A stretch of DNA of 64,000 nt from Candidatus Krumholzibacteriia bacterium. GTDB taxonomy: Bacteria; Krumholzibacteriota; Krumholzibacteriia; JAJRXK01. The position numbers and the translations under genes are program-made. Positions within the stretch are counted from its first letter, which is position 1; every line of letters starts with the position of its first letter. Positions 27,063 to 61,625 of the stretch are shown here, piece after piece. The stretch lies in NCBI GenBank assembly GCA_035268685.1, contig DATFKK010000036.1:5510-69509 (forward strand), in the 5' to 3' direction. The notes under the pieces were generated by a model, which saw nothing but the letters and a program-made list of their open reading frames with translations, did not search any database and was not told the origin of the DNA.

Positions 27063-29333
27063 CTAGCGCTCGAAACCGATCCGCAGCGTGTCCTGTTTCA
27101 GCCGTTTGGCCATCTGCTCGTACTGGGCCTCGGTCTCGGCCGTGACCGAGGGCACGGTCTCCTCGATCGCGGCGAGGAATTCCTCGTGGCCGACACGCTC
27201 GGCCCGTGGATCGGTACGAAGTGCCAGCATGCCGGCACGGGTGCACACGCCTGCGATGTCGGCCCCACTGAATCGTGCCGTACGGGTGGTCAGATCATCC
27301 AGGTCGACGTCGTCGCCGACGTGCATGCCACGCAGCTGCGCCTCGAAGATCTTGCGCCGTTGCTCGGCGTCGGGCATCGGAACGTAGACCATCTCGTCGA
27401 GTCGGCCGGGGCGCAGCAGAGCCGGATCGACCCGGTCGGGGCGGTTGGTCGCGCCGAGGATGCACACGCCCTGAAGTTCCTCGACACCGTCGAGCTCGCT
27501 GAGAATCTGGTTGACCACGCGCTCGGTCACCGCGGGCTCCCCCAAGGACCCGCCACGCACCGGCGCCAGCGAGTCGAGCTCGTCGAAGAAGATCACGGCT
27601 GGCGCCACGTGCCGCGCACGCTGGAAGAGCTCTGCGATCTTCTTCTCGGACTCGCCGTACCACTTCGACAGCAGCGAACTGCCGCGTGCGGCGAGGAAAT
27701 TCGCCCCCGCCTGGTTGGCGACGGCCTTCGCCACCAGCGTCTTGCCCGTGCCCGGCGGCCCGTACAACAGGATCCCCTTCGGCGCGCGAATCCCCAACCG
27801 CAGGAACGCACCCGGATCCTGCAGCGGCAGCTCGACCATCTCGCTCAGCGCCCGCTTGACGTTCTCGAGCCCGCCGACGTCCTCCCAGGTGACACGCGGG
27901 ATCTCCACCATGACCTCGCGCAGCGCCGAGGGCTGGATCTCCTTGAAGGCCTCGTCGACATCGGCGTTGGTCACCTCGAGCTGCTCGAGCTTCTCGCTCG
28001 GAATGGTGTTCTGCTCGAGATCGAGTTCGGGAAGCATCCGGCGCAGCGTCTCCACGGCGGACTCGCGGGCCAATGCGCTGAGATCCGACCCCGTGTAACC
28101 GTGGGTGCGGGCTGCGATCCCCTCGAGGTCGACGTCCTCGTGCAGAGGCATGCCGCGCGTGTGGATCTGCAGGATCTGGAATCGGCCGTCCTGGTCGGGA
28201 ATCCCGGCCACGATCTCACGATCGAAGCGACCCGGGCGACGCAGGGCCTCGTCGACCGCGTCGATGCGGTTCGTGGCCCCGATCACCACGACGTTGCGTC
28301 GAGCCTTCAGTCCGTCCATCAGCGTGAGCAGCTGGGCGACGATCCGGCGCTCGGTCTCCCCGCTCACGTCACCCCGTTTCGGGGCGATCGAGTCCAGTTC
28401 GTCGATGAAGATGATCGCCGGGGCGTTCTTCTCGGCCTCTTCGAAGACCTGCCGCAGTCGTTCCTCCGACTCGCCGTAATGCTTGCCCATGATCTCGGGC
28501 CCGTTGACGACGGCGAAGTAGGAATCGGTCTCGTGGGCGACGGCCCGGGCCAGCAGGGTCTTGCCGGTTCCGGGTGGGCCGTGCAGCAGAACGCCCAGCG
28601 GAGGTTCGATACCGAGACGGTCGAAGAGCTCGGGGTGCCGCAACGGAAGTTCGATCATCTCGCGGACCTTGGCCACGGCGTGGTCCAGTCCGCCGATGTC
28701 GTCGTAGGTGATGACGTGGCCCTCGTCCTCGCGCACCTCGGTGTACTCGGGCGCGAGTTCGATCTCGGTCTCCGGGGTGACGCGCACCACGCCGCGGGGC
28801 TTGGTCGAAACCACGGTCAGCCGGATCTCCATGAGACCGAAGGCCGGCGATTCGAAGAAGTCGCGGAAGAAGTCGTCCCGGTAGCCGTCGGTGCCCACGC
28901 TCTGCCGTGGTCGCCGGAACACGCTCGTCGACACCAGGTCGCCCGACAGCACGGGACGGTGTAACAGAGTGGGGCGTAGGGCCTCGCCCGTGCCGGCCAC
29001 ACGCAGCCCCTTCTGGGCGGGCGCCACGACCACACGGGCAGCCGGACTCCACTCGGCCTCACGGATCTCGACATGCTCACCGATGCCGACACCGACGTTG
29101 TGCCGAGTGAGACCGTCCAGTCGCACGATCTCGAGTCCCACGTCCTCCTGCTCGACCGGAACGACGGTGGCGGCCGTGAGATGCTTGCCCTCGACCTCGA
29201 CCACGTCCCCGCGCTCGAGGCCGAGTGCCCGCATGCTCTCGGGTCCCAATCGGACGATTCCCTTGCCGACGTCGTTCTGGCGCATCTCCGCGACCTTCAG
29301 ACGGATCGCGTTCTGCGTCTGCTGGGGGGACAT
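27063..29333 (-). CDS. CDC48/VCP-like AAA+ ATPase (N-domain + two AAA domains).
   Basis: Two Walker A motifs (GPPGTGKT twice), two Walker B motifs (IIFIDELD, VIFFDELD), second-region-of-homology Arg residues, and a CDC48-N-like double-psi barrel N-terminus. Confidence 0.9.
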   Translation of the reverse strand: MSPQQTQNAIRLKVAEMRQNDVGKGIVRLGPESMRALGLERGDVVEVEGKHLTAATVVPVEQEDVGLEIVRLDGLTRHNVGVGIGEHVEIREAEWSPAARVVVAPAQKGLRVAGTGEALRPTLLHRPVLSGDLVSTSVFRRPRQSVGTDGYRDDFFRDFFESPAFGLMEIRLTVVSTKPRGVVRVTPETEIELAPEYTEVREDEGHVITYDDIGGLDHAVAKVREMIELPLRHPELFDRLGIEPPLGVLLHGPPGTGKTLLARAVAHETDSYFAVVNGPEIMGKHYGESEERLRQVFEEAEKNAPAIIFIDELDSIAPKRGDVSGETERRIVAQLLTLMDGLKARRNVVVIGATNRIDAVDEALRRPGRFDREIVAGIPDQDGRFQILQIHTRGMPLHEDVDLEGIAARTHGYTGSDLSALARESAVETLRRMLPELDLEQNTIPSEKLEQLEVTNADVDEAFKEIQPSALREVMVEIPRVTWEDVGGLENVKRALSEMVELPLQDPGAFLRLGIRAPKGILLYGPPGTGKTLVAKAVANQAGANFLAARGSSLLSKWYGESEKKIAELFQRARHVAPAVIFFDELDSLAPVRGGSLGEPAVTERVVNQILSELDGVEELQGVCILGATNRPDRVDPALLRPGRLDEMVYVPMPDAEQRRKIFEAQLRGMHVGDDVDLDDLTTRTARFSGADIAGVCTRAGMLALRTDPRAERVGHEEFLAAIEETVPSVTAETEAQYEQMAKRLKQDTLRIGFER

Positions 29334-41121: not shown

Positions 41122-43074
41122 TCAGAACTTCAGTTCGCGCCGGATCATGGATTCGATTCCTCCCGCTGCCACCAGCGACTGGGGAAGCTCGCCCATCGGT
41201 GGGAAGGGATACTCGCGACCGTCGTAGCGGACGACGCCGGCCACGAAGTCGACGGTCACCGTCGCCGGGGCGACGACGGTGCGGAGGTCCTGTGCGGAGC
41301 GCACCGAGCGGATGGACTCGACGAACTCGGGGCACGTGATGCAGGGAAGGCCGTTGTTGTACGCGTTGCGCAGGAAGGTCTGCGCAAAGCTCCCAGCGAT
41401 GACCAACCGGATCCCGGCTGCGGTGAGTGCGGTGGCGGCCTGTTCGCGGCTGCTGCCGGTGCCGAAGCCGAATCCACCGACCAGGACGTCGCCCTCGCGA
41501 ACGATCGAGGCGAAGTCGGGGTCGTGGTTCTCCAGGACCACACGGGCCATCTCCCCGGCGCTCAGGTCACGGTAGGTGTGGTCCTTTCCGTACATGGCGT
41601 CGGTGTCGAGGTCGTCGGCGGGCACGACGATCGCACGACCCTCGATGCGCTCGGGAAAGCCCTCGAGGATCTCGACCGGTTCGACGAGCGCGGCGTCGGT
41701 CTCCACACCGCATTCGAACCGGGCCGTCGCCACCGGCCCCTCGGTCCGCACGCCCGACGGCGCGGTGATCTCGCCCTCGAGCGCCGAGGCCGCCACGACG
41801 GCGGGACCGGCCAGAAAGGCCCTCGCGTCGCGCGAACCCATGCGTCCTGGAAAATTGCGATTGGTCGCGCTGATCGCGACCTCGCCCGGCTCGAGCGATC
41901 CCTCGCCCAGACCGATGCACGGCCCACAACCCGGCGGCAACGCGTGGGCGCCCGCGTCGAGCAGCGTCTGCCAGGTCCCGTCGGCCTCGGCCGCCGCCTG
42001 CACGTCGGCACTCGCGGCCGCCACGTAGAACGACACCCCGTCGTGCACGTGACGCCCCCTCAGAACACGTGCCGCGGCCTGCAGGTCCTCGAGCCTCCCG
42101 TTCACGCAACCCAGCAGATAGGCCTTGTCGATCTTCGTGTGTCGCGCACCGACCTCGGCCACCGTGGCCAGGGCGCGGACGCTGTCGGGACCTGCGACCA
42201 CGGGCCGCAGGGTCGAGAGATCGAACTCGATGCGACCGGCGTAGACCGCATCGGGGTCGGCAGCCGGAGGGTCGGTGGACCAGTGCATCAGATCGGCCTC
42301 GCAGAAACGCTGTTCCCCACACGCGGCCAGGGCGTTGCGCACTCGACGCATGTGGTCGACGGTCACCTCGTCCACGGGGAAGATTCCCGCCAGCCCACCC
42401 CACTCGGTGGTCATGTTGGCGATGCTCAGCCGCGCGTCCATGCCGAGCGAGGCGACGCCGTCGCCGGTGAACTCGACGACCGCGTTCAGCACCTCACCGG
42501 CCGCGAACATGCCGCACAGGGCCAGGATCACGTCCTTGCCCGCCACTCCCGTGGCCAGTTCTCCACGAAGTTCCACCCGCAGGGTCCGCGGCACCTGCCA
42601 CCAGAACGTACCGGTGCTCCAGACCGCCGCGGCGTCGGTGCGGACGATCGGCGTGCCCAGAGCACCCAGTGCACCGTACGTGGTGGCGTGGGAATCGCTG
42701 GCCACACACAACGATCCCGGAACCACGTAGCCGCGCGACACCATGATCTGATGGCCGATGCCGGTGCCGGCGGGGTAGAAGTCCACGCCGTGGCCGCGCG
42801 CGAAGCCCTCGATCGAAGCGTACCTGCGCTGGTTGGCCTCGCTGCGGTTCTGGACGTCGTGGTCGAGCGCGAACACGGGCTGGGTCGGGTCGTGGATCCT
42901 GCCCACGCCGATCGCACGGAACTTCTCGATGACCGCGGCCGTGTTGTCGTGGGTGAGGACGTGCCGGGGACACAGACCGACGACGTCGCCGGCACGGATC
43001 CGGCGCCGCGGTCCGCGCGTCATGTGCGCCTGGACGATCTTCTCGGCCAGGGTCTGGCCGCCGACGGTGTTCAC
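41122..43074 (-). CDS. Aconitase-family dehydratase with fused large (LeuC-like) and small (LeuD-like) subunits.
   Basis: N-terminal roughly 420 aa carry the LeuC Fe-S ligand region (ASDSHATTYGALGALG, CGPCIG). The C-terminal roughly 190 aa are LeuD-like (swivel domain, GGFGFGTGSSREQAATAL). Start reassigned from the track TTG (43092) to GTG at 43074, overlapping the upstream gene's TGA (GTGA). Confidence 0.85.
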   Translation of the reverse strand: MNTVGGQTLAEKIVQAHMTRGPRRRIRAGDVVGLCPRHVLTHDNTAAVIEKFRAIGVGRIHDPTQPVFALDHDVQNRSEANQRRYASIEGFARGHGVDFYPAGTGIGHQIMVSRGYVVPGSLCVASDSHATTYGALGALGTPIVRTDAAAVWSTGTFWWQVPRTLRVELRGELATGVAGKDVILALCGMFAAGEVLNAVVEFTGDGVASLGMDARLSIANMTTEWGGLAGIFPVDEVTVDHMRRVRNALAACGEQRFCEADLMHWSTDPPAADPDAVYAGRIEFDLSTLRPVVAGPDSVRALATVAEVGARHTKIDKAYLLGCVNGRLEDLQAAARVLRGRHVHDGVSFYVAAASADVQAAAEADGTWQTLLDAGAHALPPGCGPCIGLGEGSLEPGEVAISATNRNFPGRMGSRDARAFLAGPAVVAASALEGEITAPSGVRTEGPVATARFECGVETDAALVEPVEILEGFPERIEGRAIVVPADDLDTDAMYGKDHTYRDLSAGEMARVVLENHDPDFASIVREGDVLVGGFGFGTGSSREQAATALTAAGIRLVIAGSFAQTFLRNAYNNGLPCITCPEFVESIRSVRSAQDLRTVVAPATVTVDFVAGVVRYDGREYPFPPMGELPQSLVAAGGIESMIRRELKF

Positions 43075-44450
43075 GACCGGTCCCTCTGACAAAGGGACAT
43101 GAAGTTCCGCGCCGAGCCGAAGTCGTCGAGCATCCAGACCGTCTCCTTCACTCGCTTCCGGGCGATCTCACTGAGGACGGGATCGGACAGGGCGTCGAAC
43201 TTGGCCTCGATCTCGTGATCGCTCAGGGGATTGCGAGGATCACCCTTCGGGTGGTCCAGCTTCTCGGAGAACTCGCGCCCGTCCTTGGTCCGGATCCTCA
43301 CGACCGCCTGCTGGAGCTCGGGGAACACGGCCTCGACGTCGGGATCGGGCATGACCTCCACCTTGCCCAGCTGCGCCCGCAACACCGGATCGGCGATCCT
43401 CTCGGGCGTGAACTGCGCCGGGGTGACGTTCCGGTCCACGAGGACGGCTGCGATCACGTAGGGCAACGAGTGGTCGGCCGTCTCCTTGCTCTGCGGATCG
43501 TACTTGCTGGGATCGGCGAGGATGTCCGCGGCGCGCGCCGTCGTTCGGACCAGAACGCTCTCGATCTCGTCGGGTGCGAGATCGTTGTCGCGGACGATGT
43601 CGAGCGTGGCCGAGATCGGCGCGTGGGTGAGCGCCTCGGTCGGAAAGGCCTTCATGCCACATCGTTCGATCCGCCAGGTCTCGCCCAGTCCGTCGGTCAG
43701 CACGTCGAGATCCCACTCCGGTCCCAGGCAGTGCACCAACCCCTCCTTGCCGTCGATCACGTGCCGCGGGCCGGTGTACCCCCGCTCGGCCAGCAGCGCG
43801 GCCGTCATTCCCGACTGGGTGGCCATCGGGTCGACCGAATTCTTCGTCATGGTCAGTTCGCCCGCCGTGACCGCTCCGAAGGTCGCGTTGTGCGACGCCG
43901 CGATGCCGATGGCGTGCTGGATGCGCTCGGTGTCGAGTCCCAGCAACCGGCCCGCTACGATCGGGGAGACGACGGCCGTCAGGGTGGCGTGGTGCCAACC
44001 GCGTTCCCTGATCCCGGGAAAGGCGGCCTCGGCCAGCCGCATCTCGAACTCGTGACCCAGCACCACTCCCAGCAGCAGATCGCGTGCATCGAGGTCCTGA
44101 CGTTCGCAGGCGGCCATGGCGGCCGGGATCACGTCGCTCGGATGCACCGGATCCTGCCGCCAGTAGATGTCGTTGTAGTCCATGGAACGGATCATCAACG
44201 CGTTCGCGAGTGTGGCCGACACGGGATCGGCCTTCTCGCCACTGGCCAGGACGGTGCACTCACCGGTGCCCGCGCACTCGGCGAGCACATCCAATGCGAT
44301 CCCGCAGTCCTCCTGCAGGAATCCACCGAACGCGCACCCCACCGAATCCAGGAGGAAGCGCTTGGCCTGGTGCAGGACCTCGGGTGGAATGTCGTCGAAG
44401 CGCAGGCCGGCAGCCCACCGGGCCATGGTCGCGGTGACGGTGTCGGACAT
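43071..44450 (-). CDS. MmgE/PrpD family protein (2-methylcitrate dehydratase-like).
   Basis: Trimmed to MSDTVTATMARWAAGLRFDDIPPEVLHQAKRFLLDSVGCAFGG, the typical PrpD N-terminus, with GGAAGG upstream. 459 aa. Confidence 0.85.
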   Translation of the reverse strand: MSDTVTATMARWAAGLRFDDIPPEVLHQAKRFLLDSVGCAFGGFLQEDCGIALDVLAECAGTGECTVLASGEKADPVSATLANALMIRSMDYNDIYWRQDPVHPSDVIPAAMAACERQDLDARDLLLGVVLGHEFEMRLAEAAFPGIRERGWHHATLTAVVSPIVAGRLLGLDTERIQHAIGIAASHNATFGAVTAGELTMTKNSVDPMATQSGMTAALLAERGYTGPRHVIDGKEGLVHCLGPEWDLDVLTDGLGETWRIERCGMKAFPTEALTHAPISATLDIVRDNDLAPDEIESVLVRTTARAADILADPSKYDPQSKETADHSLPYVIAAVLVDRNVTPAQFTPERIADPVLRAQLGKVEVMPDPDVEAVFPELQQAVVRIRTKDGREFSEKLDHPKGDPRNPLSDHEIEAKFDALSDPVLSEIARKRVKETVWMLDDFGSARNFMSLCQRDRS

Positions 44451-44730
44451 TGCGAACCCTTCCGTCCGGAACGCGGCCGGACGTACGCAGAGGAGCCGGA
44501 CACGGAGGCGATCGCCACGACGCCCCCGGTCCGTCGGATTCGGAGATGAGACCCAGCGTGGCACCGCCACCACCACGGTCGACAGCGTGGAACTGTGAGA
44601 ACCGCGCAGGCCGTCGGGCCGAAAATGTGAGCTCGCGCGTCGCCGTGATGCACGTGCACCGGGCAGGCAGAGCGGAGGGACGATCCGACCGGGTCCCTCC
44701 GCCCCGGGGGGCACACGTACGGGGAGTACG

Positions 44731-45921
44731 CTAGAACGCAGCCGTGAAGCCGACGACCGCGCGTGTCTCCTCGATCTCGAGGTCGTAGGTCAGCTCGGCG
44801 ATCATCCGCAGATTCCGGGCGTGCAGATGCGACCACGACGCGGTCACCGTCTCGTAGTCGGTGGCGTCGTCGTCGGAGTCGATCCAGTTGTACAAGAGGA
44901 CGACGGCATCCATGCCGTCGGGACCGGCCGGCATGATCGTCAGTTCGCCGATCACGCCGTCGGTCTCGATCTCCGATCCCGAGCCCGTGGCGTCGCTGTC
45001 GGTTCGATGCAGGTATTGCACGCTCGCCGAGACCTTGTCGAAGCCCACGTGCACGTCGGGACCGAAGACTTCGACATCGTTCTCGAAGCCGGTACCGCTC
45101 GCGCTCAGGGCCTCGGTCGTGGCGTAGTAGGTTCCGGCCGCGGTGACCGGACCCGCCGCGTAGACCAGGCGCCCGAGGTAGCCCTTGTCTGGGTCACGAT
45201 CGAAGAAGTCGTCTCCTCCGTCTTCCGCGGCGGCCAGGCCGTTGCCGTTGACCACCTCACCCACGAGGGACAGACCGATCGGCGTGTCGTAGGTGACCAG
45301 CACTCCACGATCGTAGGTGAGCCGTGCGACCGATCCTCCGGGTTGCGCCTTGTAGATCTCGTAGTCCTCGAAGGTCAGGCGCAGCTCGCGCTTCATCATG
45401 GGGTCGGAGATCTGGAACTGACCGACCATCACGTCGAGAGGTTGCCCCCCGAGATCGTTGAAGTGCAGGTAGGCGTCTTCCACCCCGGCGACCTCGCCCT
45501 CCTCGGCCATGTAGAAGTAGACGTAGTAGCCCACGTCGTCCATCACACTGCCACCACTCAGGAGCTTGATACCCCACGGAACCTGCAGATCGGGGACGTT
45601 CTCGTCGTCCTCCCGTGTCTCGTAGACGCCGTAGGCGTCCAGACGCACGGCCAGGGGCAGGTCGCGTTGGAGCAACAACTCCGGGTCGCCCGTGTCCTGG
45701 TAGGCTCGACGTGGTTCCTCGCCGTCGGGAAGACGGAAGCCGTTGCCGGCGAACTCGTCACCGTAGTCCTTCAGACGCGGAGCCGGCGCGTGGCACGTCG
45801 TACACGAGAGATTGTACTTGCGGGCGAAGGCGGGTATCGCGTTCGCCTCGGACACGAAGGTACTCACGAGCACCAGTGCCGCGATCATCGGGAACACAAG
45901 GTTCTTCGTCGTCTTCATCAC
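44731..45921 (-). CDS. Cyc2-like fused monoheme cytochrome c - outer-membrane beta-barrel porin.
   Basis: Signal (LVFPMIAALVLVSTFVSEANA), then a single heme motif CTTCH at about residue 42 in the context PAFARKYNLSCTTCH. The roughly 350-aa remainder has alternating amphipathic beta-strands and a C-terminal aromatic residue (VGFTAAF), the defining architecture of Cyc2 iron oxidases. Its start overlaps the upstream cytochrome gene's stop. Confidence 0.65.
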   Translation of the reverse strand: MMKTTKNLVFPMIAALVLVSTFVSEANAIPAFARKYNLSCTTCHAPAPRLKDYGDEFAGNGFRLPDGEEPRRAYQDTGDPELLLQRDLPLAVRLDAYGVYETREDDENVPDLQVPWGIKLLSGGSVMDDVGYYVYFYMAEEGEVAGVEDAYLHFNDLGGQPLDVMVGQFQISDPMMKRELRLTFEDYEIYKAQPGGSVARLTYDRGVLVTYDTPIGLSLVGEVVNGNGLAAAEDGGDDFFDRDPDKGYLGRLVYAAGPVTAAGTYYATTEALSASGTGFENDVEVFGPDVHVGFDKVSASVQYLHRTDSDATGSGSEIETDGVIGELTIMPAGPDGMDAVVLLYNWIDSDDDATDYETVTASWSHLHARNLRMIAELTYDLEIEETRAVVGFTAAF

Positions 45922-47333
45922 CAGTTCACCACCTCGACGGAAGTATCGGCTTCGCCGACGACGACGGCCTCGGTCTCCTCTGCGGGGACGTCGAGGAAGT
46001 CACCGACGGACTTCACGAGTTTGCGATAGCGGAGCACGGCCTCGAACCGCAGCTCCCCGTAGGGCACGTCCTGCGGGACCGTGAACAGATAGGTTTCGGT
46101 CTTGGTCTCTCGGGGCGCGATCCGGTAGTCGGTCCCCAGGCTCGCCGTGTTCCACTGCATGATGGTGCGGCGACCCTGCTCGTCGAAGTAGGGCAGGCAG
46201 AAGATCCGGTCGCCTTCGTAGGCCGTGGAGTCCCGGGGCAGGCCGGCGAAGTCCGGATCGTCCAGAGGTTCGCCCATGTCCTGGTAGGCCAGCTCGTTGC
46301 TGGTGATGGTCTGCTCCTCGCCCTCGAAGCCCTTCTTCTCGACCGGGAGGTGATACCGATTGCCATCGGCGTCGACGGCGTGGACGGTCACCCACAGCTG
46401 TCGCTCCTCGGCCGAGCCCGAAGGCACCTTGTGCCCGGCCTTGCCGTTGAACAGCGCCAGCTTCAGGGTCACCGGATCGCCGGGAAGACACTCAGGATGC
46501 TCGGTCCACATGACCATCTCGACCACACCGGCGAGCTTGCTCTGGTGATGGGCACCGTGGAAGAGGTGGTTCCGCCGATCGTCGACCACCTCGGCCCCCA
46601 TGATCGCGAGGCGCCCGTGCCCCGGCGGCATGTGGCAGTCGTGACAGGTGATCCCCATGTCCGGGTACGGACCCTCGGCGTACTCGAGCTGTGTGCTCTT
46701 CACCCAGACGTCGTAGGGACTCTTCTCGTTGTGGCAGGTCCCGCAGAACTCCGCACTCTGGATGAACTCGCTCTTGGCGGTGAGGTGGTGCGGCGACTCC
46801 ATGCCCTCGCGCCCGCCCCACTTCGTGCGACCGGGCTTCACGAGGTAGTTGTAGTTGTGGGGAACCTCTCCGGCGAAACCCACGACCTGATGGCACATGT
46901 CACAGTTCACGGCCTCGTCGGCCATGCTCCCCTCACCGGGCCGCGGCGGCGGGGTGTCGCCCGCGAGGAACGAGACGGGCGCGTGGCAGCCGTTGCAGCC
47001 GTGCTTCACCTCGGCCACCTTCTCCTTCCGCTCGGCGTGGGGTACGGCGAGCCGGAAGTATTCGATCTCGTCCCAGTGGTGCGTGTAGGCCTGGCTCATG
47101 AGCGAGCGGCGCCACTGCCCGGCGATGTCCAGATGACAGCCGGTGCACTGCTGGGCAGGTTGGAAGTCGTCGTAGGAGAACTGACCGTGGGCGTCGTCCC
47201 CGGAGGGGATCGCCCGGAGTTCCTCCTCGGGCAGGACCCCCGTCACGGGCTGGGCGAGAACCGGACAGGTCAGGAGCAGAACGAGGAATCCCGCTACGCA
47301 CGAGGCGAAGCGGGAGATCGCGGGGATGGGCAT
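45918..47333 (-). CDS. Periplasmic pentaheme c-type cytochrome.
   Basis: Trimmed to MPIPAISRFASCVAGFLVLLLTCPVLAQP (47333, with GGAGG upstream). Five CXXCH motifs: CTGCH, CNGCH, CDMCH, CGTCH, CHDCH. Confidence 0.8.
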   Translation of the reverse strand: MPIPAISRFASCVAGFLVLLLTCPVLAQPVTGVLPEEELRAIPSGDDAHGQFSYDDFQPAQQCTGCHLDIAGQWRRSLMSQAYTHHWDEIEYFRLAVPHAERKEKVAEVKHGCNGCHAPVSFLAGDTPPPRPGEGSMADEAVNCDMCHQVVGFAGEVPHNYNYLVKPGRTKWGGREGMESPHHLTAKSEFIQSAEFCGTCHNEKSPYDVWVKSTQLEYAEGPYPDMGITCHDCHMPPGHGRLAIMGAEVVDDRRNHLFHGAHHQSKLAGVVEMVMWTEHPECLPGDPVTLKLALFNGKAGHKVPSGSAEERQLWVTVHAVDADGNRYHLPVEKKGFEGEEQTITSNELAYQDMGEPLDDPDFAGLPRDSTAYEGDRIFCLPYFDEQGRRTIMQWNTASLGTDYRIAPRETKTETYLFTVPQDVPYGELRFEAVLRYRKLVKSVGDFLDVPAEETEAVVVGEADTSVEVVNW

Positions 47334-47509
47334 GAGTCCTCCGATATGTCGAGCACCCACCGGAATGGGCGCCGGATCGCGCGACGCGGAAGCCTGGTCG
47401 AGGACAGGTGGCTCCCGGCGTCACGCTCTCGATTCACTGCGCGAGGCATTCCATCTATACCAGCCTCGGCCGATCGAACCCATGATGCATGTGGATCAGA
47501 TCGGTGGGA

Positions 47510-47998
47510 TCACTCGCTCTCGCCGAGACGATGATCACGTAGATGCTCGAGCTCCTCGGGGCCGAAGTACGCCGCACTGAACTCCGAGATCAGCTCGTCG
47601 AGCTTCTCGGTGTGCGCCGTTTCCGTGGTCTGCTTCGACTTCATGGCGTGCACGAGCATCTCGTGAAGCAGTGTGAGCTGCTTCACGTAGTCCGAGTCGT
47701 CGGCACCGGCCGGCTTGATCCGCTGGTGCAGGAAGTACTGGCTGACGATGTGCTGGAACTCGACGGCGTGCTGTTCCTTGTTGGTGATCCAGCGCACGAT
47801 CTGATTGTAGTTCTTGTCGCCCTCGGCGGTCAGGGCGTCGATCTGGTTCATGGCTTTCTCGATCGTGGTCACGTGCTCGCGCAGCATCTCGATGCGCATG
47901 GCGTCGCCGTAGATCCCGCACGGGATCTCGCAGTGGGCGCGCACGGTGGCGGGAGCGAGAAGGACGAGCAACAGGGCGGCGCTCAGGGCACGGCGCAT
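47510..47998 (-). CDS. sodN: Nickel superoxide dismutase with a Sec-type signal peptide (periplasmic).
   Basis: MRRALSAALLLVLLAPATVRA | HCEIPCGIYGDA. The Ni-hook motif H-C-x-x-P-C-G-x-Y directly follows a predicted AxA signal-peptidase site, so His1 becomes the N-terminus. The rest is a four-helix-bundle-length (about 140 aa) sequence. Confidence 0.85.
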   Translation of the reverse strand: MRRALSAALLLVLLAPATVRAHCEIPCGIYGDAMRIEMLREHVTTIEKAMNQIDALTAEGDKNYNQIVRWITNKEQHAVEFQHIVSQYFLHQRIKPAGADDSDYVKQLTLLHEMLVHAMKSKQTTETAHTEKLDELISEFSAAYFGPEELEHLRDHRLGESE

Positions 47999-55343: not shown

Positions 55344-56960
55344 TCAGTTCGGGCTCCGGCGTTCCGCCATGCGCCTGCGCTCGACATGCCGCGCACCGAC
55401 GATGTCGACGAGTCGTGCGTGGCGTCCGGTGTTGAAGTCCCAGATCGTGCGCAGGCGCTCCCAGGACCACACCGGATGCCGGGTGATGACGTGCAGGATC
55501 CCCACCAGGTCCACCAGGGCATCGTCCTGCATCTGGTTCACGCCGCTCTTCAGGGTCTCCCGATAACCCTCGGGCGGTTCGCGATGGATGTGCCCGATCC
55601 GCCAGGGGCGCGCGGGATCCGGCGGAAGCCGCGACATGAGAGGATCGCCCAGGCCGTAGCGATCGATGAAGTGCACACGTGGCCCGGCGAAGAAGGCACG
55701 CATGCCGGCCGCGCTGACCACGGCGATCCCCGTGGCTCGCTGGTCGCGCGCACGTCGGCCCCAGTCGGCCCATTCGTGTGCCGGCATCTCTCCGCGGCCG
55801 CCGGCCAGCATCGGGCTGGTGCCACGGAAGTAGAAGCTACGCTCGTCGGCGATGCCGTGCCCGTCCAGGAACCGCGCGTCTTCGGGCAGGTCGAGGTAGG
55901 ACCTGGGGTCGGTTCGCAGTGGACTCGAGGGGACCAGCACCGACCAGCCCAGGGCCACGGCGAGCACCACCATCGCCCATCGCGGTCGAAAGGCGGCCCC
56001 GACGTGCAGGACCAGGACCACGGAGGCCAGGATCGGCAGCGTGAAGAAACGACCCCGCATGAAGTCACCGCCGACGTTGACCACGTACACGACGTAGGCG
56101 ACGACACCCAACGCGATCGCGATCGGCATGCCGCGGCGCGCCCGGACCGCGACGACGATTCCCCCGATCAGGGTCACGAGGGCCAACGTGTCGTGCCGCG
56201 CGAAGTTGGCGACATAGCGCAGGCCCTGGGCCCAGAGCTCGGCGCGCGGGATCCCGGCGCCGAGCTTGGCATAGGCGGTGTTCGGGAACGGGAACCCGTA
56301 ATAGAGAGTGGCGAACACCATCCACGCCACGAAGGGCGTCATTCCGAGGGCCACCGTCGCCAGCGCCCGCCGACGCGACGGCGCACGGACCACGCTCCAC
56401 ACCAGCGGCGGCGCGACGATCAGGAGCATGTCCATGCGGTTGACCATCAGCAACGCCGCCAGCACCGAGGCCAGCAGCAACCGCCGTCCGACCGGCTCAC
56501 CGCGCAACACCGCGACCAGGAACGCGGCCAGCAGGAGATGTCCGAGAGCGTTCTCCAGCCCCGAGGTCGAATAGTCCACGAACGCACGGGACGAGAGCAG
56601 CAGGCCGACCGCCGCCGCCGCCGCCCAGGCACCACGGGCCTGCAGCACCACGAGCAGCACCGCACCGATCGTCGCGACCAGACTCAGCACGAGCGAGGTG
56701 TAGTAGAACTCGCGAGTGAAGAATGCCCCGCCGGCCACCACGAGGGTCCACAGCGGATTCGTGAAGGCCTGCACCCTCTCGGCCACGTTCCAACGCAGGC
56801 CGTAGCCCTCGACGAGGTTCTCGGCCACGCGGAAGGAGATGAAGGCGTCGTCTCCCAGCCAGGCGTTGCGCCAGACCACGATCACGAAGACGACGAGGAG
56901 AAGACACACCAGTGCGACCGGCGCTCGGCGCGAGGCCGCGAGGAATTCCGGGACCATCAT
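55344..56960 (-). CDS. GT-C fold polytopic membrane glycosyltransferase (ArnT/PMT-like; family unclear).
   Basis: 538 aa with about 12 TM segments. N-proximal motif WRNAWLGDDAFISFRVAENLVEGYG with the DD/E characteristic of GT-C enzymes, and a C-terminal soluble domain. Confidence 0.55.
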   Translation of the reverse strand: MMVPEFLAASRRAPVALVCLLLVVFVIVVWRNAWLGDDAFISFRVAENLVEGYGLRWNVAERVQAFTNPLWTLVVAGGAFFTREFYYTSLVLSLVATIGAVLLVVLQARGAWAAAAAVGLLLSSRAFVDYSTSGLENALGHLLLAAFLVAVLRGEPVGRRLLLASVLAALLMVNRMDMLLIVAPPLVWSVVRAPSRRRALATVALGMTPFVAWMVFATLYYGFPFPNTAYAKLGAGIPRAELWAQGLRYVANFARHDTLALVTLIGGIVVAVRARRGMPIAIALGVVAYVVYVVNVGGDFMRGRFFTLPILASVVLVLHVGAAFRPRWAMVVLAVALGWSVLVPSSPLRTDPRSYLDLPEDARFLDGHGIADERSFYFRGTSPMLAGGRGEMPAHEWADWGRRARDQRATGIAVVSAAGMRAFFAGPRVHFIDRYGLGDPLMSRLPPDPARPWRIGHIHREPPEGYRETLKSGVNQMQDDALVDLVGILHVITRHPVWSWERLRTIWDFNTGRHARLVDIVGARHVERRRMAERRSPN

Positions 56961-57745: not shown

Positions 57746-57884
57746 GGCGAAGCCTCCGTTCGGGGCCCCGCGCCACAGCGCGGAGCGTGGAGTCCGGCTG
57801 CACCTCCAGTGTAGCACCGCCGCGGGGCCTTCCCGCTCTGATCAACCTGCACCAACCCCGTGCCGCGGCTTGCCCGCCGCCGGC

Positions 57885-58075
57885 GGAGCCGTTATGGTCC
57901 TGCCACTCGAAACCGACGCCCGGCGGGTCCAACCGGGAAGCTGGTGCGATTCCAGCGCGGCCCCGCCACTGTGACCGGCGACGGCCTCCGCACACGCCAC
58001 TGGAACACGGGTTCTGGGAAGGCGCGGAGAGCCGGCTCGAGCCGGAAGCCAGGAGACCGACCCCGGGCGTTTCCA
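57885..58075 (+). ncRNA. Cobalamin (adenosylcobalamin) riboswitch in the 5' leader of the TonB-dependent receptor.
   Basis: Core GGGAAGCTGGTGCGATTCCAGCGCGGCCCCGCCACTGTGACCGG, containing the conserved GGTGxGAxTCC element and the B12 box GCCACTG (57965-57971). About 130 nt before the receptor ATG. Confidence 0.6.
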
Positions 58076-58206
58076 CCTGGTCCTTCGGGGGAAGGAAGGG
58101 TGGGTTTCGCGCACGCGGAGGTGGGCACTCCCACCGGCCGTCACCCCTGCTGCGCGCGACCGACCGTACCGACCTACCGGGACGCAACCTCCGGCGGTGA
58201 TGGGCC

Positions 58207-60258
58207 ATGCCCAACACGCGCGCACGGGGGCTGCTCCTCGGTCTGTTCGCACTGGCGTGCGGAGGAACGACGATCCCGGCGGCGAGAGCCGCCGACGCCG
58301 ATTCCACGACCGGAGCATCCCCGACCACCGTCGACGCCGACTCGACGGGCGATCTCGTGGCACCCGTGCTCGAGGTGCGTGGACGTCGGATCACGGCCCA
58401 GGGTCGCGTGGATCGCGACACCGGCTTCGCCAGCGTGCTCGAAGCCTCGAGCTGGCGCGGCGAGTCCTACGACACCGCCGAGGTCCTCTCGCGCGCGGTC
58501 GGTGTGCACGTGCGCGACAGCGGAGGCGTGGGCGGACACGCGACCGTCAGCCTGCGCGGATCGACACCGGCGCAGGTCCCGATCTACCTCGACGGAGTGC
58601 TCCTGAACGGACCCGACAGCGGAGCCGTGGACCTGGCCGACCTCCACCTGGCCCACCTCGAACGGATCGAGGTCTACCGTGGAAGCGCTCCCCTCGTGCT
58701 CGGCGGTGGCTCGCTCGGAGGCGCCATCCACCTGTACAGCCTCGACGGACGCGAGAGCTGGAACGGTTCGCTCACGCGTGGTTCCTTCGACACGTGGAAC
58801 GCGGAGGGGGGTGGTGCGTGGCGACTGGCAGACTGGTCGGTCGCGGCACGCGGTCGATTCGTGCGCAGCGAGAACGACTGGGACTACCTCGACGACCGCC
58901 GCACGCCCTACAACCCCGACGACGATCGCGTCGTCGGCCGCGTCAACAACGATGCCACCGGCTTCGGCGGACAACTGCAGCTCAGCCGTCCCGCCTTCGG
59001 AGGCACGCTACGGCTGAGCGAGATCCTCGACACGCGCGAACAGGGCCTGCCCGGACGTGGGGTACTCCAGTCGGAGACCGCACGGAGCCGGTCGCTGACG
59101 CACCACGCGCAGATCGCCTGGCGCAGTGAACGGCGTGCCCGCGGCGTCCTCCGGGAGGTCTCCCTCCACCAGCGGACCGAACGACAGGCCGTCCGCGACC
59201 TCGGCGGCGACCTGTCGGGGACCCCGCGCGACCGCGTCGACGTGCTGCACGCCGTGGGCCTGAACGCGAGCGGCGCCGCGAGACCCTTCGGGCCGACCGT
59301 CTGGAACGTCCAGAGCCGGGTCGCGCGGCTCCGCAGCGTCGACGAAGCCCTCCTCGACGGCGAGGGCGAACCCCAGTGGCGCTGGACCACCACCGCTGCC
59401 CTCGAACCGAAGTGGCGCGTCCTCGGCGACCGCCTCTTGCTGTCGCCCGGAGTCCGCGTGGAGCACCACGAGCAGTGGTGGAACGAGAGTTCGTCGCTCG
59501 AGTCCCTGCCGCGTGGCGACGAACAGAGGACGGGACTGTTCGCCTACACCGCCCAGTTCGGGACGCGCTACGCGATCAGCGACGAGGTGTCGCTGAAGGC
59601 GAACCTGGGAGTCTACCGTCGTGTCCCCACGCTGCTCGAGCTCTTCGGCGACCGGGGAACGACCACCGCGAACCCCGACCTGCGTCCCGAAGAGGGTGTG
59701 AACCGCGACGTGGGCCTGGTCTGGTCACGCCCACTCGAGGGGCGGCGCTTCGCCCTGAGTGCCTTCGCCAACGACGCCTTCGACCTGATCACCTTCGTGA
59801 AGACCTCGCCGGTCACCGCCCGGGCCCGGAACCTGGGTCGCGCCGAGATCCGCGGCCTCGAATTCGAGGCCGACTTCGGTCGATTCGGGCCCTTCGGATT
59901 CCGTGCGGCCATCACCCGCCTCTGGAGTGAGGACCGGACCGACGACACCGTCGCCGGCGGGAAGCAGTTGCCCTTCCGGCCCGGGATCGAGGTGGAGTTG
60001 CAACAGAGCCTGCACGTGGGACACCTGCGTGCCGACTTCGACCTGTTCGCGATGGGCGAGAACTACCAGCAGACCGGCGAGCGCCTGGCCGTCCCCGCAC
60101 GTGTGATCGGCTCGATCGGACTCCGCTGGAGACTGAGCTCCGACTGGGCCCTGCACGGGCGGGTCGACAACGTCTCCGACGCCGAGGTCCACGACTTCCT
60201 GGGTGATCCCCTGCCCGGACGTCAGGTCTCGCTGAGCCTGCAGGCGGGTGGACGATGA
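58207..60258 (+). CDS. TonB-dependent outer-membrane receptor, probably a BtuB-like vitamin B12 transporter.
   Basis: Signal peptide, TonB box-like DLVAPVLEV, plug domain then a 22-strand barrel, and a C-terminal TonB-receptor signature. The upstream B12 riboswitch supports the cobalamin assignment. Confidence 0.8.
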   Translation: MPNTRARGLLLGLFALACGGTTIPAARAADADSTTGASPTTVDADSTGDLVAPVLEVRGRRITAQGRVDRDTGFASVLEASSWRGESYDTAEVLSRAVGVHVRDSGGVGGHATVSLRGSTPAQVPIYLDGVLLNGPDSGAVDLADLHLAHLERIEVYRGSAPLVLGGGSLGGAIHLYSLDGRESWNGSLTRGSFDTWNAEGGGAWRLADWSVAARGRFVRSENDWDYLDDRRTPYNPDDDRVVGRVNNDATGFGGQLQLSRPAFGGTLRLSEILDTREQGLPGRGVLQSETARSRSLTHHAQIAWRSERRARGVLREVSLHQRTERQAVRDLGGDLSGTPRDRVDVLHAVGLNASGAARPFGPTVWNVQSRVARLRSVDEALLDGEGEPQWRWTTTAALEPKWRVLGDRLLLSPGVRVEHHEQWWNESSSLESLPRGDEQRTGLFAYTAQFGTRYAISDEVSLKANLGVYRRVPTLLELFGDRGTTTANPDLRPEEGVNRDVGLVWSRPLEGRRFALSAFANDAFDLITFVKTSPVTARARNLGRAEIRGLEFEADFGRFGPFGFRAAITRLWSEDRTDDTVAGGKQLPFRPGIEVELQQSLHVGHLRADFDLFAMGENYQQTGERLAVPARVIGSIGLRWRLSSDWALHGRVDNVSDAEVHDFLGDPLPGRQVSLSLQAGGR

Positions 60259-61625
60259 AGATCCTGTTGATCGCGTTCGCCCTCCTCCTGAGCTCCCGGG
60301 CAGGGGCGACCGAAGAACTCTTCGTGGTCACCACCACCTTCGAGGTCGTGGGAAGCACCGGACGGATCGGAATCGACGGCGGCTATCCGACGGTGGCCGA
60401 CGAGTTCCAGGTCCACAGCGATGCCGTCGTCCGCCAGCAGAACGGCTTCGTGTTCGTGATCAACCGCCTGTTCGCCGACAACGTGCTCGTGCTCGACGCC
60501 GCCGACGACTACGGCGTGGTCACGCAGTTCGGCGTGAGCGGAACGGGCCTCAACCCGCGCGACCTCGAACTGGTCGGCGACGATCGTGCCTACGTCACGC
60601 TGTACGAGAGCAACGAACTCCTGATCTGCAACCCCTTCACCGGAACGACGCTCGGGACGATCGACCTGTCCGCCTTCGCCGTGGCCGACGGTCTGGTCGA
60701 AATGGATCAGATCGCCCGCGTCGGCGATCGCGTGTTCGTCACCCTGCAGAACGTGGATCGGCGCGTGACGCCGTGGGCGGTGACCGGCGCGTCGACGATC
60801 GCGGTGATCGACACGAACACCGACACCCTGGTCGACGCCGATCCGGGGGCCCCCGGCGTACAGGGCATCGAACTACAGATCCAGAATCCCTACTGGCGCT
60901 TCGAGTACGATCCGGGCCGACAGCGCCTGTTCATGATCGGCGCGGGCTCGTTCCAACAGAGCGACGGCGGACTCGAACGGATCCATCCCTTCACCCTGCG
61001 CTCGGAAGGACCGGTGCTGACCGAGGCCGGCCTCGACGGCGACCTGCTGGACGTCGCGCTGGTGGACGACGCCACGGGATGGGCCCTGATCAACGACCCG
61101 ACCTTCAACACCTGTCTGGTGCGCTTCGATCCCACGACCGGCGAGCGCACCGACACCGTGCTGTGCACGAGCGGCTTCCTCCTGAGCGATCTGGAGCTGT
61201 CGCGCGACGGTCGGATCTTCGTGGGCGACCGCACGCCGTCGAATCCGGGAATCCGGGTGTACGACGCCTCCACGGCCCAATTGTTGAGCGGTCCGTTGGA
61301 CGTCGGGCTGCCACCCTTCGACGCCACGCTGATCGAAGGGGTCCCGACCGGCGCACCCGTTCCCACGCGCCCTGCCCGGCTCGCGGCCCACCCGAATCCC
61401 TTCAATCCGCGGGTGACGATCGGACTCGACGGCGCCGAGCACGACGGGGTGGTCGAGATCGTCGACGCGCGGGGGCGAAGAGTTCGGACACTGGCGCTGG
61501 AAGCCGGGACCGCGATCTGGAACGGCATGGATTCCGAGGGACGGCCCGCGGCCAGTGGGATCTACCGGGCCCGCCTGCGCGGACGGGACGACGTGACGGC
61601 CGTCCCGCTCACACTGGTGCGTTGA
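60255..61625 (+). CDS. Secreted YVTN-type beta-propeller protein with a C-terminal FlgD-Ig-like sorting-type domain.
   Basis: Its start overlaps the receptor gene's stop (ATGA). Signal peptide MKILLIAFALLLSSRAGA. YVTN-like repeats (RAYVTLYESNELLICNPFTG, RVFVTLQNVDRRV). C-terminus HPNPFNPRVTIGL...GRPAASGIYRARLRGRDDVTAVPLTLVR. Confidence 0.7.
   Translation: MKILLIAFALLLSSRAGATEELFVVTTTFEVVGSTGRIGIDGGYPTVADEFQVHSDAVVRQQNGFVFVINRLFADNVLVLDAADDYGVVTQFGVSGTGLNPRDLELVGDDRAYVTLYESNELLICNPFTGTTLGTIDLSAFAVADGLVEMDQIARVGDRVFVTLQNVDRRVTPWAVTGASTIAVIDTNTDTLVDADPGAPGVQGIELQIQNPYWRFEYDPGRQRLFMIGAGSFQQSDGGLERIHPFTLRSEGPVLTEAGLDGDLLDVALVDDATGWALINDPTFNTCLVRFDPTTGERTDTVLCTSGFLLSDLELSRDGRIFVGDRTPSNPGIRVYDASTAQLLSGPLDVGLPPFDATLIEGVPTGAPVPTRPARLAAHPNPFNPRVTIGLDGAEHDGVVEIVDARGRRVRTLALEAGTAIWNGMDSEGRPAASGIYRARLRGRDDVTAVPLTLVR

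What the first reader, a model, noticed from the sequence alone, without database searches (positions are those of the whole stretch)
57885..61625. B12 riboswitch - BtuB-like receptor - surface beta-propeller operon (possible BtuG-like B12-capture protein)
A cobalamin riboswitch (B12 box GCCACTG at 57965) precedes a TonB-dependent receptor. The receptor gene's stop overlaps (ATGA) the start of a secreted YVTN beta-propeller protein that ends in a FlgD-Ig-like C-terminal domain. In Bacteroidota the B12 receptor BtuB is partnered with BtuG, a surface beta-propeller that binds B12 with very high affinity. A structurally analogous propeller co-transcribed under a B12 riboswitch in a non-Bacteroidota lineage would suggest convergent or shared accessory B12-scavenging machinery.
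Basis: partly seen in the sequence, partly recalled or inferred. Interest (0 to 1): 0.6.

Follow-up and report, generated by a model that had tools for sequence, protein, structure and literature searches.

The report
BtuG-like B12-capture propeller outside Bacteroidota
A vitamin-B12 riboswitch in an uncultured Krumholzibacteria genome controls an outer-membrane B12 receptor and a secreted seven-bladed propeller that is a distant relative of BtuG, a protein the literature calls exclusive to Bacteroidetes, here with a secretion-type C-terminal tail instead of a lipid anchor.

Summary
A full-length cobalamin riboswitch (RF00174, 91.8 bits) lies at 57878-58079. It is followed by a BtuB-type TonB-dependent receptor (58207-60258). 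A 456-aa secreted protein (60255-61625) overlaps the receptor's stop by ATGA.

Context was read for 45 non-redundant family members. In 36 of the 39 where the upstream region could be read, a cobalamin riboswitch lies upstream on the same strand. In 43 of 45, a receptor gene is adjacent. One locus is a complete corrinoid-salvage operon.

The family is large: about 1,100 clusters at 50 % identity score E<=1e-30. It has no Pfam model for the propeller. Named members are all MAGs of Krumholzibacteriota, Latescibacterota, Eisenbacteria and Binatia, plus one MAG labelled Bacteroidales.

It differs from BtuG in three ways. It has no lipobox, its tether is a T9SS-like C-terminal domain, and its pocket is remodelled and very acidic.

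B12 binding and surface location are inferred, not shown. Verdict: a new variant of a known kind; interest 0.6.

The parts
57878..58079 (+). Cobalamin riboswitch aptamer
   Evidence: RF00174, 91.8 bits against a gathering score of 31.5, E 1.9e-21, model positions 1-189 of 189.
58080..58206 (+). Leader between the aptamer and the start codon (expression platform, mechanism unresolved)
   Evidence: No ORF in this stretch. No intrinsic-terminator-like site was found. The fold of 58040-58235 is no more stable than shuffled sequence (z -1.2).
58207..60258 (+). BtuB-type TonB-dependent receptor, 683 aa (signal peptide about residues 1-28, Plug 88-173, barrel to the C-terminus)
   Evidence: Pfam Plug 60.7 bits and barrel 102.3 bits. 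Partial matches to TonB-B12 TIGR01779 and BtuB NF007926, both below their cut-offs. A profile of the propeller-linked receptors finds B. theta BtuB1 best (E 1.2e-49, full length), then BtuB3, BtuB2 and E. coli BtuB.
60255..60308 (+). Sec signal peptide of the propeller protein (residues 1-18, AGA/T cleavage site judged by eye, no lipobox cysteine)
   Evidence: Translation. N-termini of 120 homologues compared.
60309..61334 (+). Seven-bladed beta-propeller domain (residues 19-360), remote homologue of BtuG
61335..61376 (+). Flexible linker (residues 361-374)
   Evidence: pLDDT drops to about 58 here, and is below 50 at residues 366-368.
61377..61625 (+). C-terminal Ig-like domain (residues 375-456) of the FlgD_ig / T9SS-sorting-domain type, plus the stop codon
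   Evidence: FlgD_ig 29.6 bits. Por_Secre_tail scores only E 0.17 in this protein but is hit in 33 of 58 family members. The profile matches the C-terminal domains of PorZ and PorU at E about 1e-3. NCBI names several homologues 'T9SS type A sorting domain-containing protein'.

Best explanation
This is a two-gene, B12-repressed corrinoid-uptake cassette. When intracellular adenosylcobalamin is low, the riboswitch lets the operon be expressed.

The first product is a BtuB-type TonB-dependent outer-membrane transporter. The second is a distant homologue of the Bacteroides BtuG protein. It is a seven-bladed, strongly acidic propeller. It is exported by Sec, most likely carried across the outer membrane by a type IX-like pathway that recognises its C-terminal Ig-like domain, and then tethered at the cell surface.

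There it captures corrinoids on the conserved loop face of the propeller. It passes them to the partner transporter, probably by sitting on it as a lid as BtuG does on BtuB. BtuFCD-type genes encoded elsewhere would complete import.

What is shown here: the riboswitch, the gene pair, the fold, the homology to BtuG, and the family-wide linkage to riboswitch and receptor.

What is inferred: corrinoid binding, surface location via T9SS, and lid docking.
For: - **Riboswitch:** 91.8 bits.
- **Fold:** BtuG is the top hit by two independent methods.
- **Homology:** BtuG chains are the only significant propeller hits of the family profile in the PDB. hhalign gives 97-98 % probability with alignments in register.
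- **Linkage across the family:** of 45 non-redundant members, 36 have RF00174 upstream on the same strand, 3 do not, and 6 are cut off too close to tell. At 50 % identity, 19 of 21 clusters have the riboswitch. A receptor is adjacent in 43 of 45.
- **Riboswitch directly before the propeller:** seen in L127, L150, L142/L155 and L169.
- **Salvage and uptake contexts:** L092 reads riboswitch-BtuF-TBDR-propeller-CobA/BtuR-CbiZ-CbiB-ABC-FecCD. The Binatia locus reads TBDR-propeller-BtuF-FecCD-ABC.
- **Partner receptor:** the partner receptors are closest to B. theta BtuB1, the BtuG1 partner.
- **One conserved face:** about 33 of the 40 near-invariant residues lie in the loop sets on one face of the propeller. 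The positions that align to BtuG's B12 contacts are among the most conserved: T27 54/58, N70 53/58, N100 55/58, E/D118 53/58, Q165 54/58.
- **BtuG contacts retained:** N107 aligns to N70 and Q219 to Q203, both identical, and S131 aligns to N100. The position of BtuG2 Phe58, which stacks on the DMB base, is F or Y in 35 of 58 members.
Against: - No binding, localisation or transport data exist for any member.
- The Pfam BtuG model (DUF5074) does not match this protein, and matches only 2 of 58 relatives, weakly.
- The aromatic contacts of BtuG (W149, W194, W272, and F58 in this protein) are replaced by E118, Q165, V254 and E30.
- The domain is far more acidic than BtuG3 (net -30 against -4). 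The ligand or binding mode may therefore differ.
- The T9SS assignment of this protein's tail is weak (Por_Secre_tail E 0.17). No T9SS, btuFCD or cob genes lie in the window.
- The receptor falls far below the NCBIfam BtuB cut-offs.
- The expression platform could not be defined.
Confidence: 0.7

Rival explanations
1. The propeller is a released scavenger, analogous to a haemophore, rather than a tethered lid. It would be secreted, would bind corrinoids free in the medium or on vesicles, and would then return to the receptor.
For: T9SS cargo can be released as well as anchored (established knowledge). The family swaps its tethering module freely: T9SS-like tail, lipobox cysteine, or dockerin/EF-hand modules at either end. 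In some loci the propeller has its own riboswitch, or no receptor is detected within 3 kb (L142/L155, L160).
Against: A receptor is immediately adjacent in 43 of 45 cases, often with overlapping or nearly touching genes. The homologue BtuG forms a stable lid complex with BtuB (PMC10404256). Nearly every member carries some anchoring module.
Confidence: 0.15
2. The propeller belongs to the B12 regulon but does not bind complete corrinoids. It might bind cobalt or another cationic precursor, act on corrinoids enzymatically, or serve as a periplasmic helper.
For: - Extreme acidity, with many invariant Asp and Glu residues.
- Loss of BtuG's tryptophan contacts.
- Lipoprotein-type members in Binatia could face the periplasm.
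Against: - BtuG outranks every enzyme propeller by both structure and sequence.
- The partner receptors are BtuB-like.
- The loci carry corrinoid salvage genes (CbiZ, CobA/BtuR, CbiB) and BtuF.
- BtuG2 is itself reported to use a negative face to attract B12 (PMC6143338, PMC10404256).
Confidence: 0.12
3. The adjacency is incidental. The propeller is an unrelated surface protein that happens to follow a btuB gene.
For: None beyond the lack of a Pfam assignment for the propeller.
Against: The linkage to riboswitch and receptor is conserved across members sharing only 33-62 % identity with the window protein, and across several phyla. The start and stop codons overlap.
Confidence: 0.02

Closest known systems
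BtuG (BtuG1/2/3 of Bacteroides thetaiotaomicron; Pfam DUF5074, PF16819), the surface B12-binding lid of BtuB
   Same: - Detectable sequence homology.
- Encoded directly after a btuB-type receptor under a cobalamin riboswitch.
- Conservation concentrated on the face that binds B12 in BtuG.
   Different: - Only 14-18 % identity, and not recognised by the DUF5074 model.
- No lipobox Cys or lipoprotein export signal. Instead it has a type-I signal peptide and a C-terminal T9SS-like Ig domain.
- Aromatic B12 contacts are replaced by E, Q and V.
- Much more acidic.
- The host is Krumholzibacteria, whereas BtuG is described as exclusive to Bacteroidetes (PMC6143338; 10.1101/2024.02.16.580637).
XusB (Bacteroides xenosiderophore-binding propeller lipoprotein paired with the TonB-dependent transporter XusA)
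   Different: It is a weaker match than BtuG. It binds siderophores under iron control, whereas this locus is under a B12 riboswitch.
BtuK1 and BtuH (other Bacteroides surface B12 binders)
   Different: BtuK1 is a much weaker match. BtuH uses a DUF4465 domain, which is absent here.
E. coli YncE / archaeal YVTN surface-layer propellers
   Same: The same general fold. JGI names some family members 'YncE', and 1l0q also combines a propeller with an Ig-like domain.
E. coli BtuB / classical riboswitch-btuB units
   Same: A cobalamin riboswitch controlling a TonB-dependent B12 receptor.
   Different: E. coli BtuB works without a surface partner. Here a co-translated propeller is part of the unit.

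Membership tests
BtuG (surface B12-capture propeller of Bacteroidota) | Seven-bladed beta-propeller that superimposes on solved BtuG structures | tested here: met
   [not shown]
BtuG (surface B12-capture propeller of Bacteroidota) | Sequence homology to BtuG at profile level | tested here: met
   Family profile against PDB sequences: BtuG chains score E 2.9e-10 to 1e-7 and all other propellers score above 0.02. hhalign gives 97.1 % with E 6.2e-11 and 98.2 % with E 2.9e-13 over 281 columns.
BtuG (surface B12-capture propeller of Bacteroidota) | Match to the Pfam model of the family (DUF5074, PF16819) | tested here: not met
   No hit at E<=0.1 for this protein. Only 2 of 58 relatives hit, at E 0.016. 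True BtuG fragments do carry PF16819.
BtuG (surface B12-capture propeller of Bacteroidota) | Encoded next to btuB in an operon under a cobalamin riboswitch | tested here: met
   Met in the window. Riboswitch present in 36 of 39 assessable non-redundant relatives, and a receptor adjacent in 43 of 45.
BtuG (surface B12-capture propeller of Bacteroidota) | N-terminal lipobox cysteine followed by a Bacteroidota lipoprotein export signal | tested here: not met
   The N-terminus MKILLIAFALLLSSRAGATEE has no Cys. Most relatives are the same, although a minority (for example P0085, P0102, P0112) do have a lipobox.
BtuG (surface B12-capture propeller of Bacteroidota) | Conservation of the B12-contacting residues (BtuG2 E55, G56, F58, Q93, N107, S131, R133/135, W149, W194, S195, Q219, W272) | tested here: inconclusive
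   Mapped through hhalign. N107 to N70, Q219 to Q203 and R133 to R102 are identical. S131 to N100 is similar. E55 to T27, F58 to E30, W149 to E118, W194 to Q165 and W272 to V254 are changed. The aligned columns are nevertheless highly conserved within the family. The blade-1 alignment has low confidence.
BtuG (surface B12-capture propeller of Bacteroidota) | Direct high-affinity binding of cobalamin or cobinamide, and a lid complex with BtuB | not testable with these tools
   Needs recombinant protein or complex modelling.
Cobalamin riboswitch (Rfam RF00174) | Covariance-model score above the gathering threshold over the full aptamer | tested here: met
   91.8 bits against 31.5, model positions 1-189 of 189.
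Cobalamin riboswitch (Rfam RF00174) | Sits in the 5' leader of a B12-related gene on the same strand | tested here: met
   The aptamer ends 127 nt before the receptor start codon.
Cobalamin riboswitch (Rfam RF00174) | Defined expression platform (terminator or RBS sequestration) | tested here: inconclusive
   No terminator-like site. The leader fold has z -1.2.
BtuB-type TonB-dependent B12 transporter | Plug plus 22-strand barrel domain architecture | tested here: met
   Pfam Plug and TonB_dep_Rec_b-barrel match. The strand count itself was not verified, because the structure model failed.
BtuB-type TonB-dependent B12 transporter | Score above the NCBIfam BtuB equivalog cut-offs | tested here: not met
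   TIGR01779 scores 112.7 bits against a cut-off of 599.7. NF007926 scores 78.8 against 836.
BtuB-type TonB-dependent B12 transporter | Closest characterised relatives are BtuB proteins | tested here: met
   Profile of propeller-linked receptors: B. theta BtuB1 1.2e-49, BtuB3 5e-40, BtuB2 1.4e-39, E. coli BtuB 1.2e-38. An unnamed TonB-linked receptor (9gbc_A, 1.1e-42) ranks second, between BtuB1 and BtuB3. Cir scores 5e-33 and siderophore receptors score E >= 4e-19, i.e. far weaker.
Type IX secretion cargo (type A C-terminal domain) | Sec signal peptide plus a C-terminal beta-sandwich of about 80 aa that matches the sorting-domain models | tested here: inconclusive
   FlgD_ig 29.6 bits, above its cut-off, but Por_Secre_tail only E 0.17 in this protein. 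33 of 58 relatives hit Por_Secre_tail. PorZ and PorU C-terminal domains match at E about 1e-3.
Type IX secretion cargo (type A C-terminal domain) | T9SS machinery (SprA/Sov, PorV, PorU, PorZ) encoded in the same genome | not tested
   None found in the 64 kb window. The rest of the genome was not available, and no paper was found on T9SS in Krumholzibacteriota.
YncE / YVTN propellers | Match to YVTN-repeat or YncE family models | tested here: not met
   No such Pfam or NCBIfam hit. The similarity is at fold level only and lower than to BtuG.

The most novel reading that the evidence does not exclude
Propeller-capped B12 transporters are not a Bacteroidota invention. They would be an old, widespread design, with more than 1,000 sequence clusters across uncultured FCB phyla and Binatia. 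In this design the same BtuG-type propeller is fixed to the cell surface by interchangeable anchors: a T9SS tail, a lipid, or a dockerin-like module. The family's acidic, tryptophan-poor pocket would be a second solution for binding corrinoids, possibly tuned to cationic or incomplete corrinoids such as cobinamide in sediments and soils.
Probability: 0.45. Interest if true: 0.7.

Novelty: new variant of a known kind. Interest (0 to 1): 0.6.

Why it matters
B12 is made by few microbes and needed by most, so the machinery for capturing it shapes communities. BtuG is the best-studied 'super-binder' and has been described as exclusive to Bacteroidetes. Lipoprotein-capped TonB transporters have likewise been described as a Bacteroidetes speciality (PMC6143338, PMC10404256).

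This locus and its relatives suggest otherwise. The BtuB-plus-propeller design appears to extend to several uncultured phyla common in soils and sediments. It uses a different anchoring chemistry and a different pocket.

Three things follow:
- a testable family of new corrinoid binders;
- an annotation for more than 1,000 'hypothetical' or 'FlgD Ig-like' protein clusters;
- a natural experiment in how a surface lid can be tethered to an outer-membrane transporter.

Tried and rejected
- **Genome-contig scan with the full-length alignment.** The patterns chosen hit the promiscuous C-terminal PNPFNP sorting domain, so L001-L080 are unrelated proteins.
- **Search with a 100-aa BtuG3 fragment.** It returned only fragments of 175 aa or fewer. 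BtuG3 residues 1-312 had to be rebuilt from a fragment and from PDB alignments. The last 43 residues, which hold the adenosyl contact Tyr335 of BtuG2, could not be mapped.
- **AF2 of the receptor.** The single-sequence model was useless (pLDDT 30.5), so there is no structural comparison of the receptor and no complex model.
- **afdb50 fold library.** Unavailable.
- **Expression platform.** The terminator scan and leader fold gave nothing.
- **Cluster look-up.** It added little taxonomy.
- **Literature searches.** Searches for BtuG-like proteins outside Bacteroidota, for BtuG with T9SS, for DUF5074, and for T9SS in Krumholzibacteriota found nothing relevant.
- **Considered and rejected on ranking and context:** a YncE-type DNA-binding protein, a lactonase-type enzyme, and an XusB-type siderophore binder.
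Full report
**What is in the sequence**

A scan of the whole 64 kb window against Rfam gives one hit. It is the cobalamin riboswitch RF00174 at 57878-58079 on the + strand, at 91.8 bits (gathering score 31.5) and E 1.9e-21, covering model positions 1-189.

It has a second copy at 57996, and it is this second copy that aligns with the model's conserved GCCACUG. The heptamer alone is no more frequent than chance (11 found, 10 expected).

The first ORF starts 127 nt downstream (58207-60258, 683 aa). It has Plug and TonB-dependent barrel domains. Its stop overlaps the start of the next ORF (ATGA at 60255-60258). That ORF (60255-61625, 456 aa) begins with a cysteine-free signal peptide. It has no Pfam match over its first 370 residues and ends in a FlgD_ig domain (29.6 bits).

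A convergent phosphofructokinase gene ends 7 nt after its stop, so the unit is a two-gene cassette. The rest of the window is housekeeping and holds no btuFCD, cob or T9SS genes. An identical protein is on record from a Candidatus Krumholzibacteria MAG.

**What the second protein is**

An AlphaFold2 model built on 58 homologues is confident (mean pLDDT 92.8). It shows 28 strands (seven blades) over residues 21-360, a floppy linker, and a beta-sandwich over residues 375-456.

The similarity is also visible in sequence. A profile of the family finds only BtuG chains among PDB propellers (E 2.9e-10 to 1e-7; the next propeller scores E 0.03). Profile-profile comparison with a BtuG alignment gives 97.1 % probability (E 6.2e-11, 144 columns). 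In global mode it gives 98.2 % (E 2.9e-13, 281 columns, in register across blades 1-6). This is therefore remote homology, not convergence.

Even so, the Pfam model that covers BtuG (DUF5074, identified) does not match this protein. It matches only 2 of 58 relatives, weakly.

**Is the family tied to B12?**

I read the surroundings of relatives obtained in two ways. Nine came from look-ups of individual proteins, eight of which returned DNA. Eighty came from a metagenome scan using a propeller-only alignment.

After removing near-duplicates, 45 members at 90 % identity or less were examined, counting the window.
- 36 have an RF00174 riboswitch upstream on the same strand (47-117 bits).
- 3 do not, within the sequence available.
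- In 6, the receptor ORF runs to the edge of the fetched DNA, so nothing can be said.
- At 50 % identity, 19 of 21 clusters have the riboswitch.
- A receptor gene related to the window's receptor is adjacent in 43 of 45: 41 upstream and 2 downstream.

Several arrangements tie the riboswitch to the propeller itself. L127 and L150 read riboswitch-propeller-receptor. In L169 the riboswitch sits between receptor and propeller. L142/L155 read riboswitch-propeller with no receptor detected nearby.

One locus (L092) is a complete corrinoid-salvage operon: riboswitch, BtuF-like binding protein, receptor, propeller, CobA/BtuR, CbiZ, CbiB and ABC transporter genes. The Binatia locus continues with BtuF-FecCD-ABC genes.

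A profile of the partner receptors is closest to B. thetaiotaomicron BtuB1, which is the BtuG1 partner (E 1.2e-49, full length). An unnamed TonB-linked receptor (9gbc_A, 1.1e-42) follows, then BtuB3, BtuB2 and E. coli BtuB. Siderophore and haem receptors are far weaker. As a single sequence, the window's receptor is well below the NCBIfam BtuB cut-offs.

**Where the function probably sits**

About 33 of the 40 near-invariant residues of the family fall in or next to two alternating sets of inter-strand loops. Because successive loops alternate between the two faces, these residues lie on one face of the propeller.

The published B12 contacts of BtuG2 are listed in bioRxiv 10.1101/2024.02.16.580637. 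I checked the numbering against BtuG3. Through the alignment, these contacts map onto the same loops:
- N107 to N70 (identical; 53 of 58 in the family)
- S131 to N100 (55 of 58)
- R133 to R102
- Q219 to Q203 (36 of 58)
- E55 to T27
- W149 to E118 (E or D in 53 of 58)
- W194 to Q165 (54 of 58)
- W272 to V254

The position of Phe58, which stacks on the lower base in BtuG2, is F or Y in 35 of 58 members but Glu in this protein.

So the same face is under selection, but its chemistry is different. The propeller domain is also very acidic: net -30 over 341 residues, with a family median of -7.5 per 100 residues, against -4 over 292 residues for BtuG3. BtuG2 is reported to attract B12 with a negative face (PMC6143338, PMC10404256). 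The acidity here is consistent with that idea but also with cation binding.

**How it is probably anchored**

BtuG is a lipoprotein with a lipobox cysteine and a Bacteroidota export signal (PMC6143338). This protein has neither.

Its C-terminal domain belongs to the FlgD_ig / Por_Secre_tail group. 33 of 58 relatives hit the T9SS sorting-domain model, and the profile matches the C-terminal domains of PorZ and PorU. NCBI calls several relatives 'T9SS type A sorting domain-containing protein'. For this particular protein the Por_Secre_tail score is weak (E 0.17).

The family uses at least three tethering solutions:
- signal peptide plus C-terminal sorting domain (most members);
- lipobox cysteine without the tail (for example P0085, P0102, and P0112 from Binatia);
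- dockerin/EF-hand-like modules at either end.

In a closed propeller the two chain ends normally lie close together. A C-terminal tether could therefore leave the molecule in much the same orientation as BtuG's N-terminal lipid. That is an inference.

**Mechanism proposed**

Low AdoCbl leaves the riboswitch open, and both genes are expressed. The receptor is inserted into the outer membrane. The propeller is exported, passed across the outer membrane through a type IX-like route, and tethered. It captures corrinoids on its conserved face and delivers them to the receptor, probably as a hinged lid. TonB-driven import and a BtuFCD system encoded elsewhere finish the job.

Shown here: the riboswitch, the gene pair, the fold, the homology, and the regulon membership. 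Inferred: ligand binding, surface exposure, docking, and the type of expression platform. For the platform, no terminator was found and the leader fold was not significant.

**Comparison with what is known, and novelty**

The published view is that BtuG homologues are 'exclusively found in the Bacteroidetes' (PMC6143338; repeated in 10.1101/2024.02.16.580637). [quoted passage not shown] The 2018 survey behind the first statement used BlastP on human gut genomes, which could not have seen this family.

I found no paper in the held library describing BtuG-like proteins elsewhere, or linked to T9SS.

A propeller-only profile finds 1,123 clusters (50 % identity) at E<=1e-30 and 2,565 at E<=1e-10 among 1.84 billion representatives. 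Named members come from MAGs of Krumholzibacteriota, Latescibacterota, Eisenbacteria and Binatia, plus one labelled Bacteroidales.

I therefore rate it a new variant of a known kind. The job and the ancestry are probably the same as BtuG's. The lineage range, the anchor and the pocket differ. It fails two BtuG membership features, the lipoprotein signals and the Pfam model, so I do not file it as BtuG proper.

**Limits**

- All members are from uncultured organisms.
- Nothing is known experimentally about any of them.
- The receptor could not be modelled, so docking is untested.
- The blade-1 part of the alignment to BtuG has low confidence.
- The last 43 residues of BtuG3 were not available for mapping.

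Noticed in passing
L001-L080; window 61377-61622: The C-terminal Ig-like domain of about 80 aa, with its PNPFNP motif, is a promiscuous module. A pattern scan pulled it from unrelated proteins of Fibrobacteraceae, Cloacimonadota, Latescibacterota, Zixiibacteriota, Ignavibacteriota, Gemmatimonadota, Eisenbacteria, KSB1 and Marinimicrobia MAGs. This suggests a sorting signal used across the FCB group. Only one copy lies in this window.
   Followed up: partly
L092 2194-11860: A complete riboswitch-controlled corrinoid salvage operon containing a family member that carries a C-terminal dockerin/EF-hand-like module. Gene order: BtuF-like, TBDR (with a CarboxypepD_reg domain), propeller, CobA/BtuR, CbiZ, unknown, CbiB, ABC ATPase, FecCD permease.
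   Followed up: partly
L127, L150, L169, L142/L155: Variant gene orders. L127 and L150 read riboswitch-propeller-TBDR. In L169 the riboswitch lies between TBDR and propeller. L142/L155 read riboswitch-propeller, followed by an 859-aa ORF with no Pfam match and no receptor detected within 3 kb.
   Followed up: partly
L170 212-259 (+) and 299-344 (-): Two Acido-Lenti-1 RNA (RF01687) matches lie just upstream of the cobalamin riboswitch. The propeller protein of this locus is unusually long (664 aa), and its extension has no Pfam match.
   Followed up: no
P0198: A 739-aa family member with two matched propeller stretches, so possibly a tandem double propeller. Other members are 560-860 aa long, with unexplored extra domains.
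   Followed up: no
window 60309-61334 and alignment A1: The propeller domains of the family are strongly acidic (median -7.5 net charge per 100 aa; -30 in the window protein). That is more acidic than most other proteins encoded in the window.
   Followed up: partly
window 27063-29333 (-): A CDC48/VCP-like double AAA+ ATPase with CDC48_N and CDC48_2 domains, an architecture more usual in archaea and eukaryotes.
   Followed up: no
window 41122-44714 (-) and 47510-47998 (-): Adjacent PrpD (2-methylcitrate dehydratase) and aconitase genes, that is, the B12-independent methylcitrate route for propionate. A nickel superoxide dismutase gene lies nearby.
   Followed up: no
window 24625-27057 (+), 44731-47360 (-), 55344-56960 (-), 1884-3263 (-): Several long ORFs with high third-position GC and no Pfam match at the thresholds used (E<=1e-5, or E<=1e-3 for 55344-56960). 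55344-56960 lies two genes upstream of the riboswitch, on the opposite strand.
   Followed up: no
PDB 6v81/9c4o: The propeller-linked receptors also resemble E. coli YncD/PqqU (E about 2e-28). To my recollection the E. coli yncD gene lies next to yncE, which encodes the YncE propeller. This hints at an older receptor-propeller pairing, but the adjacency is from memory and was not checked here.
   Followed up: no
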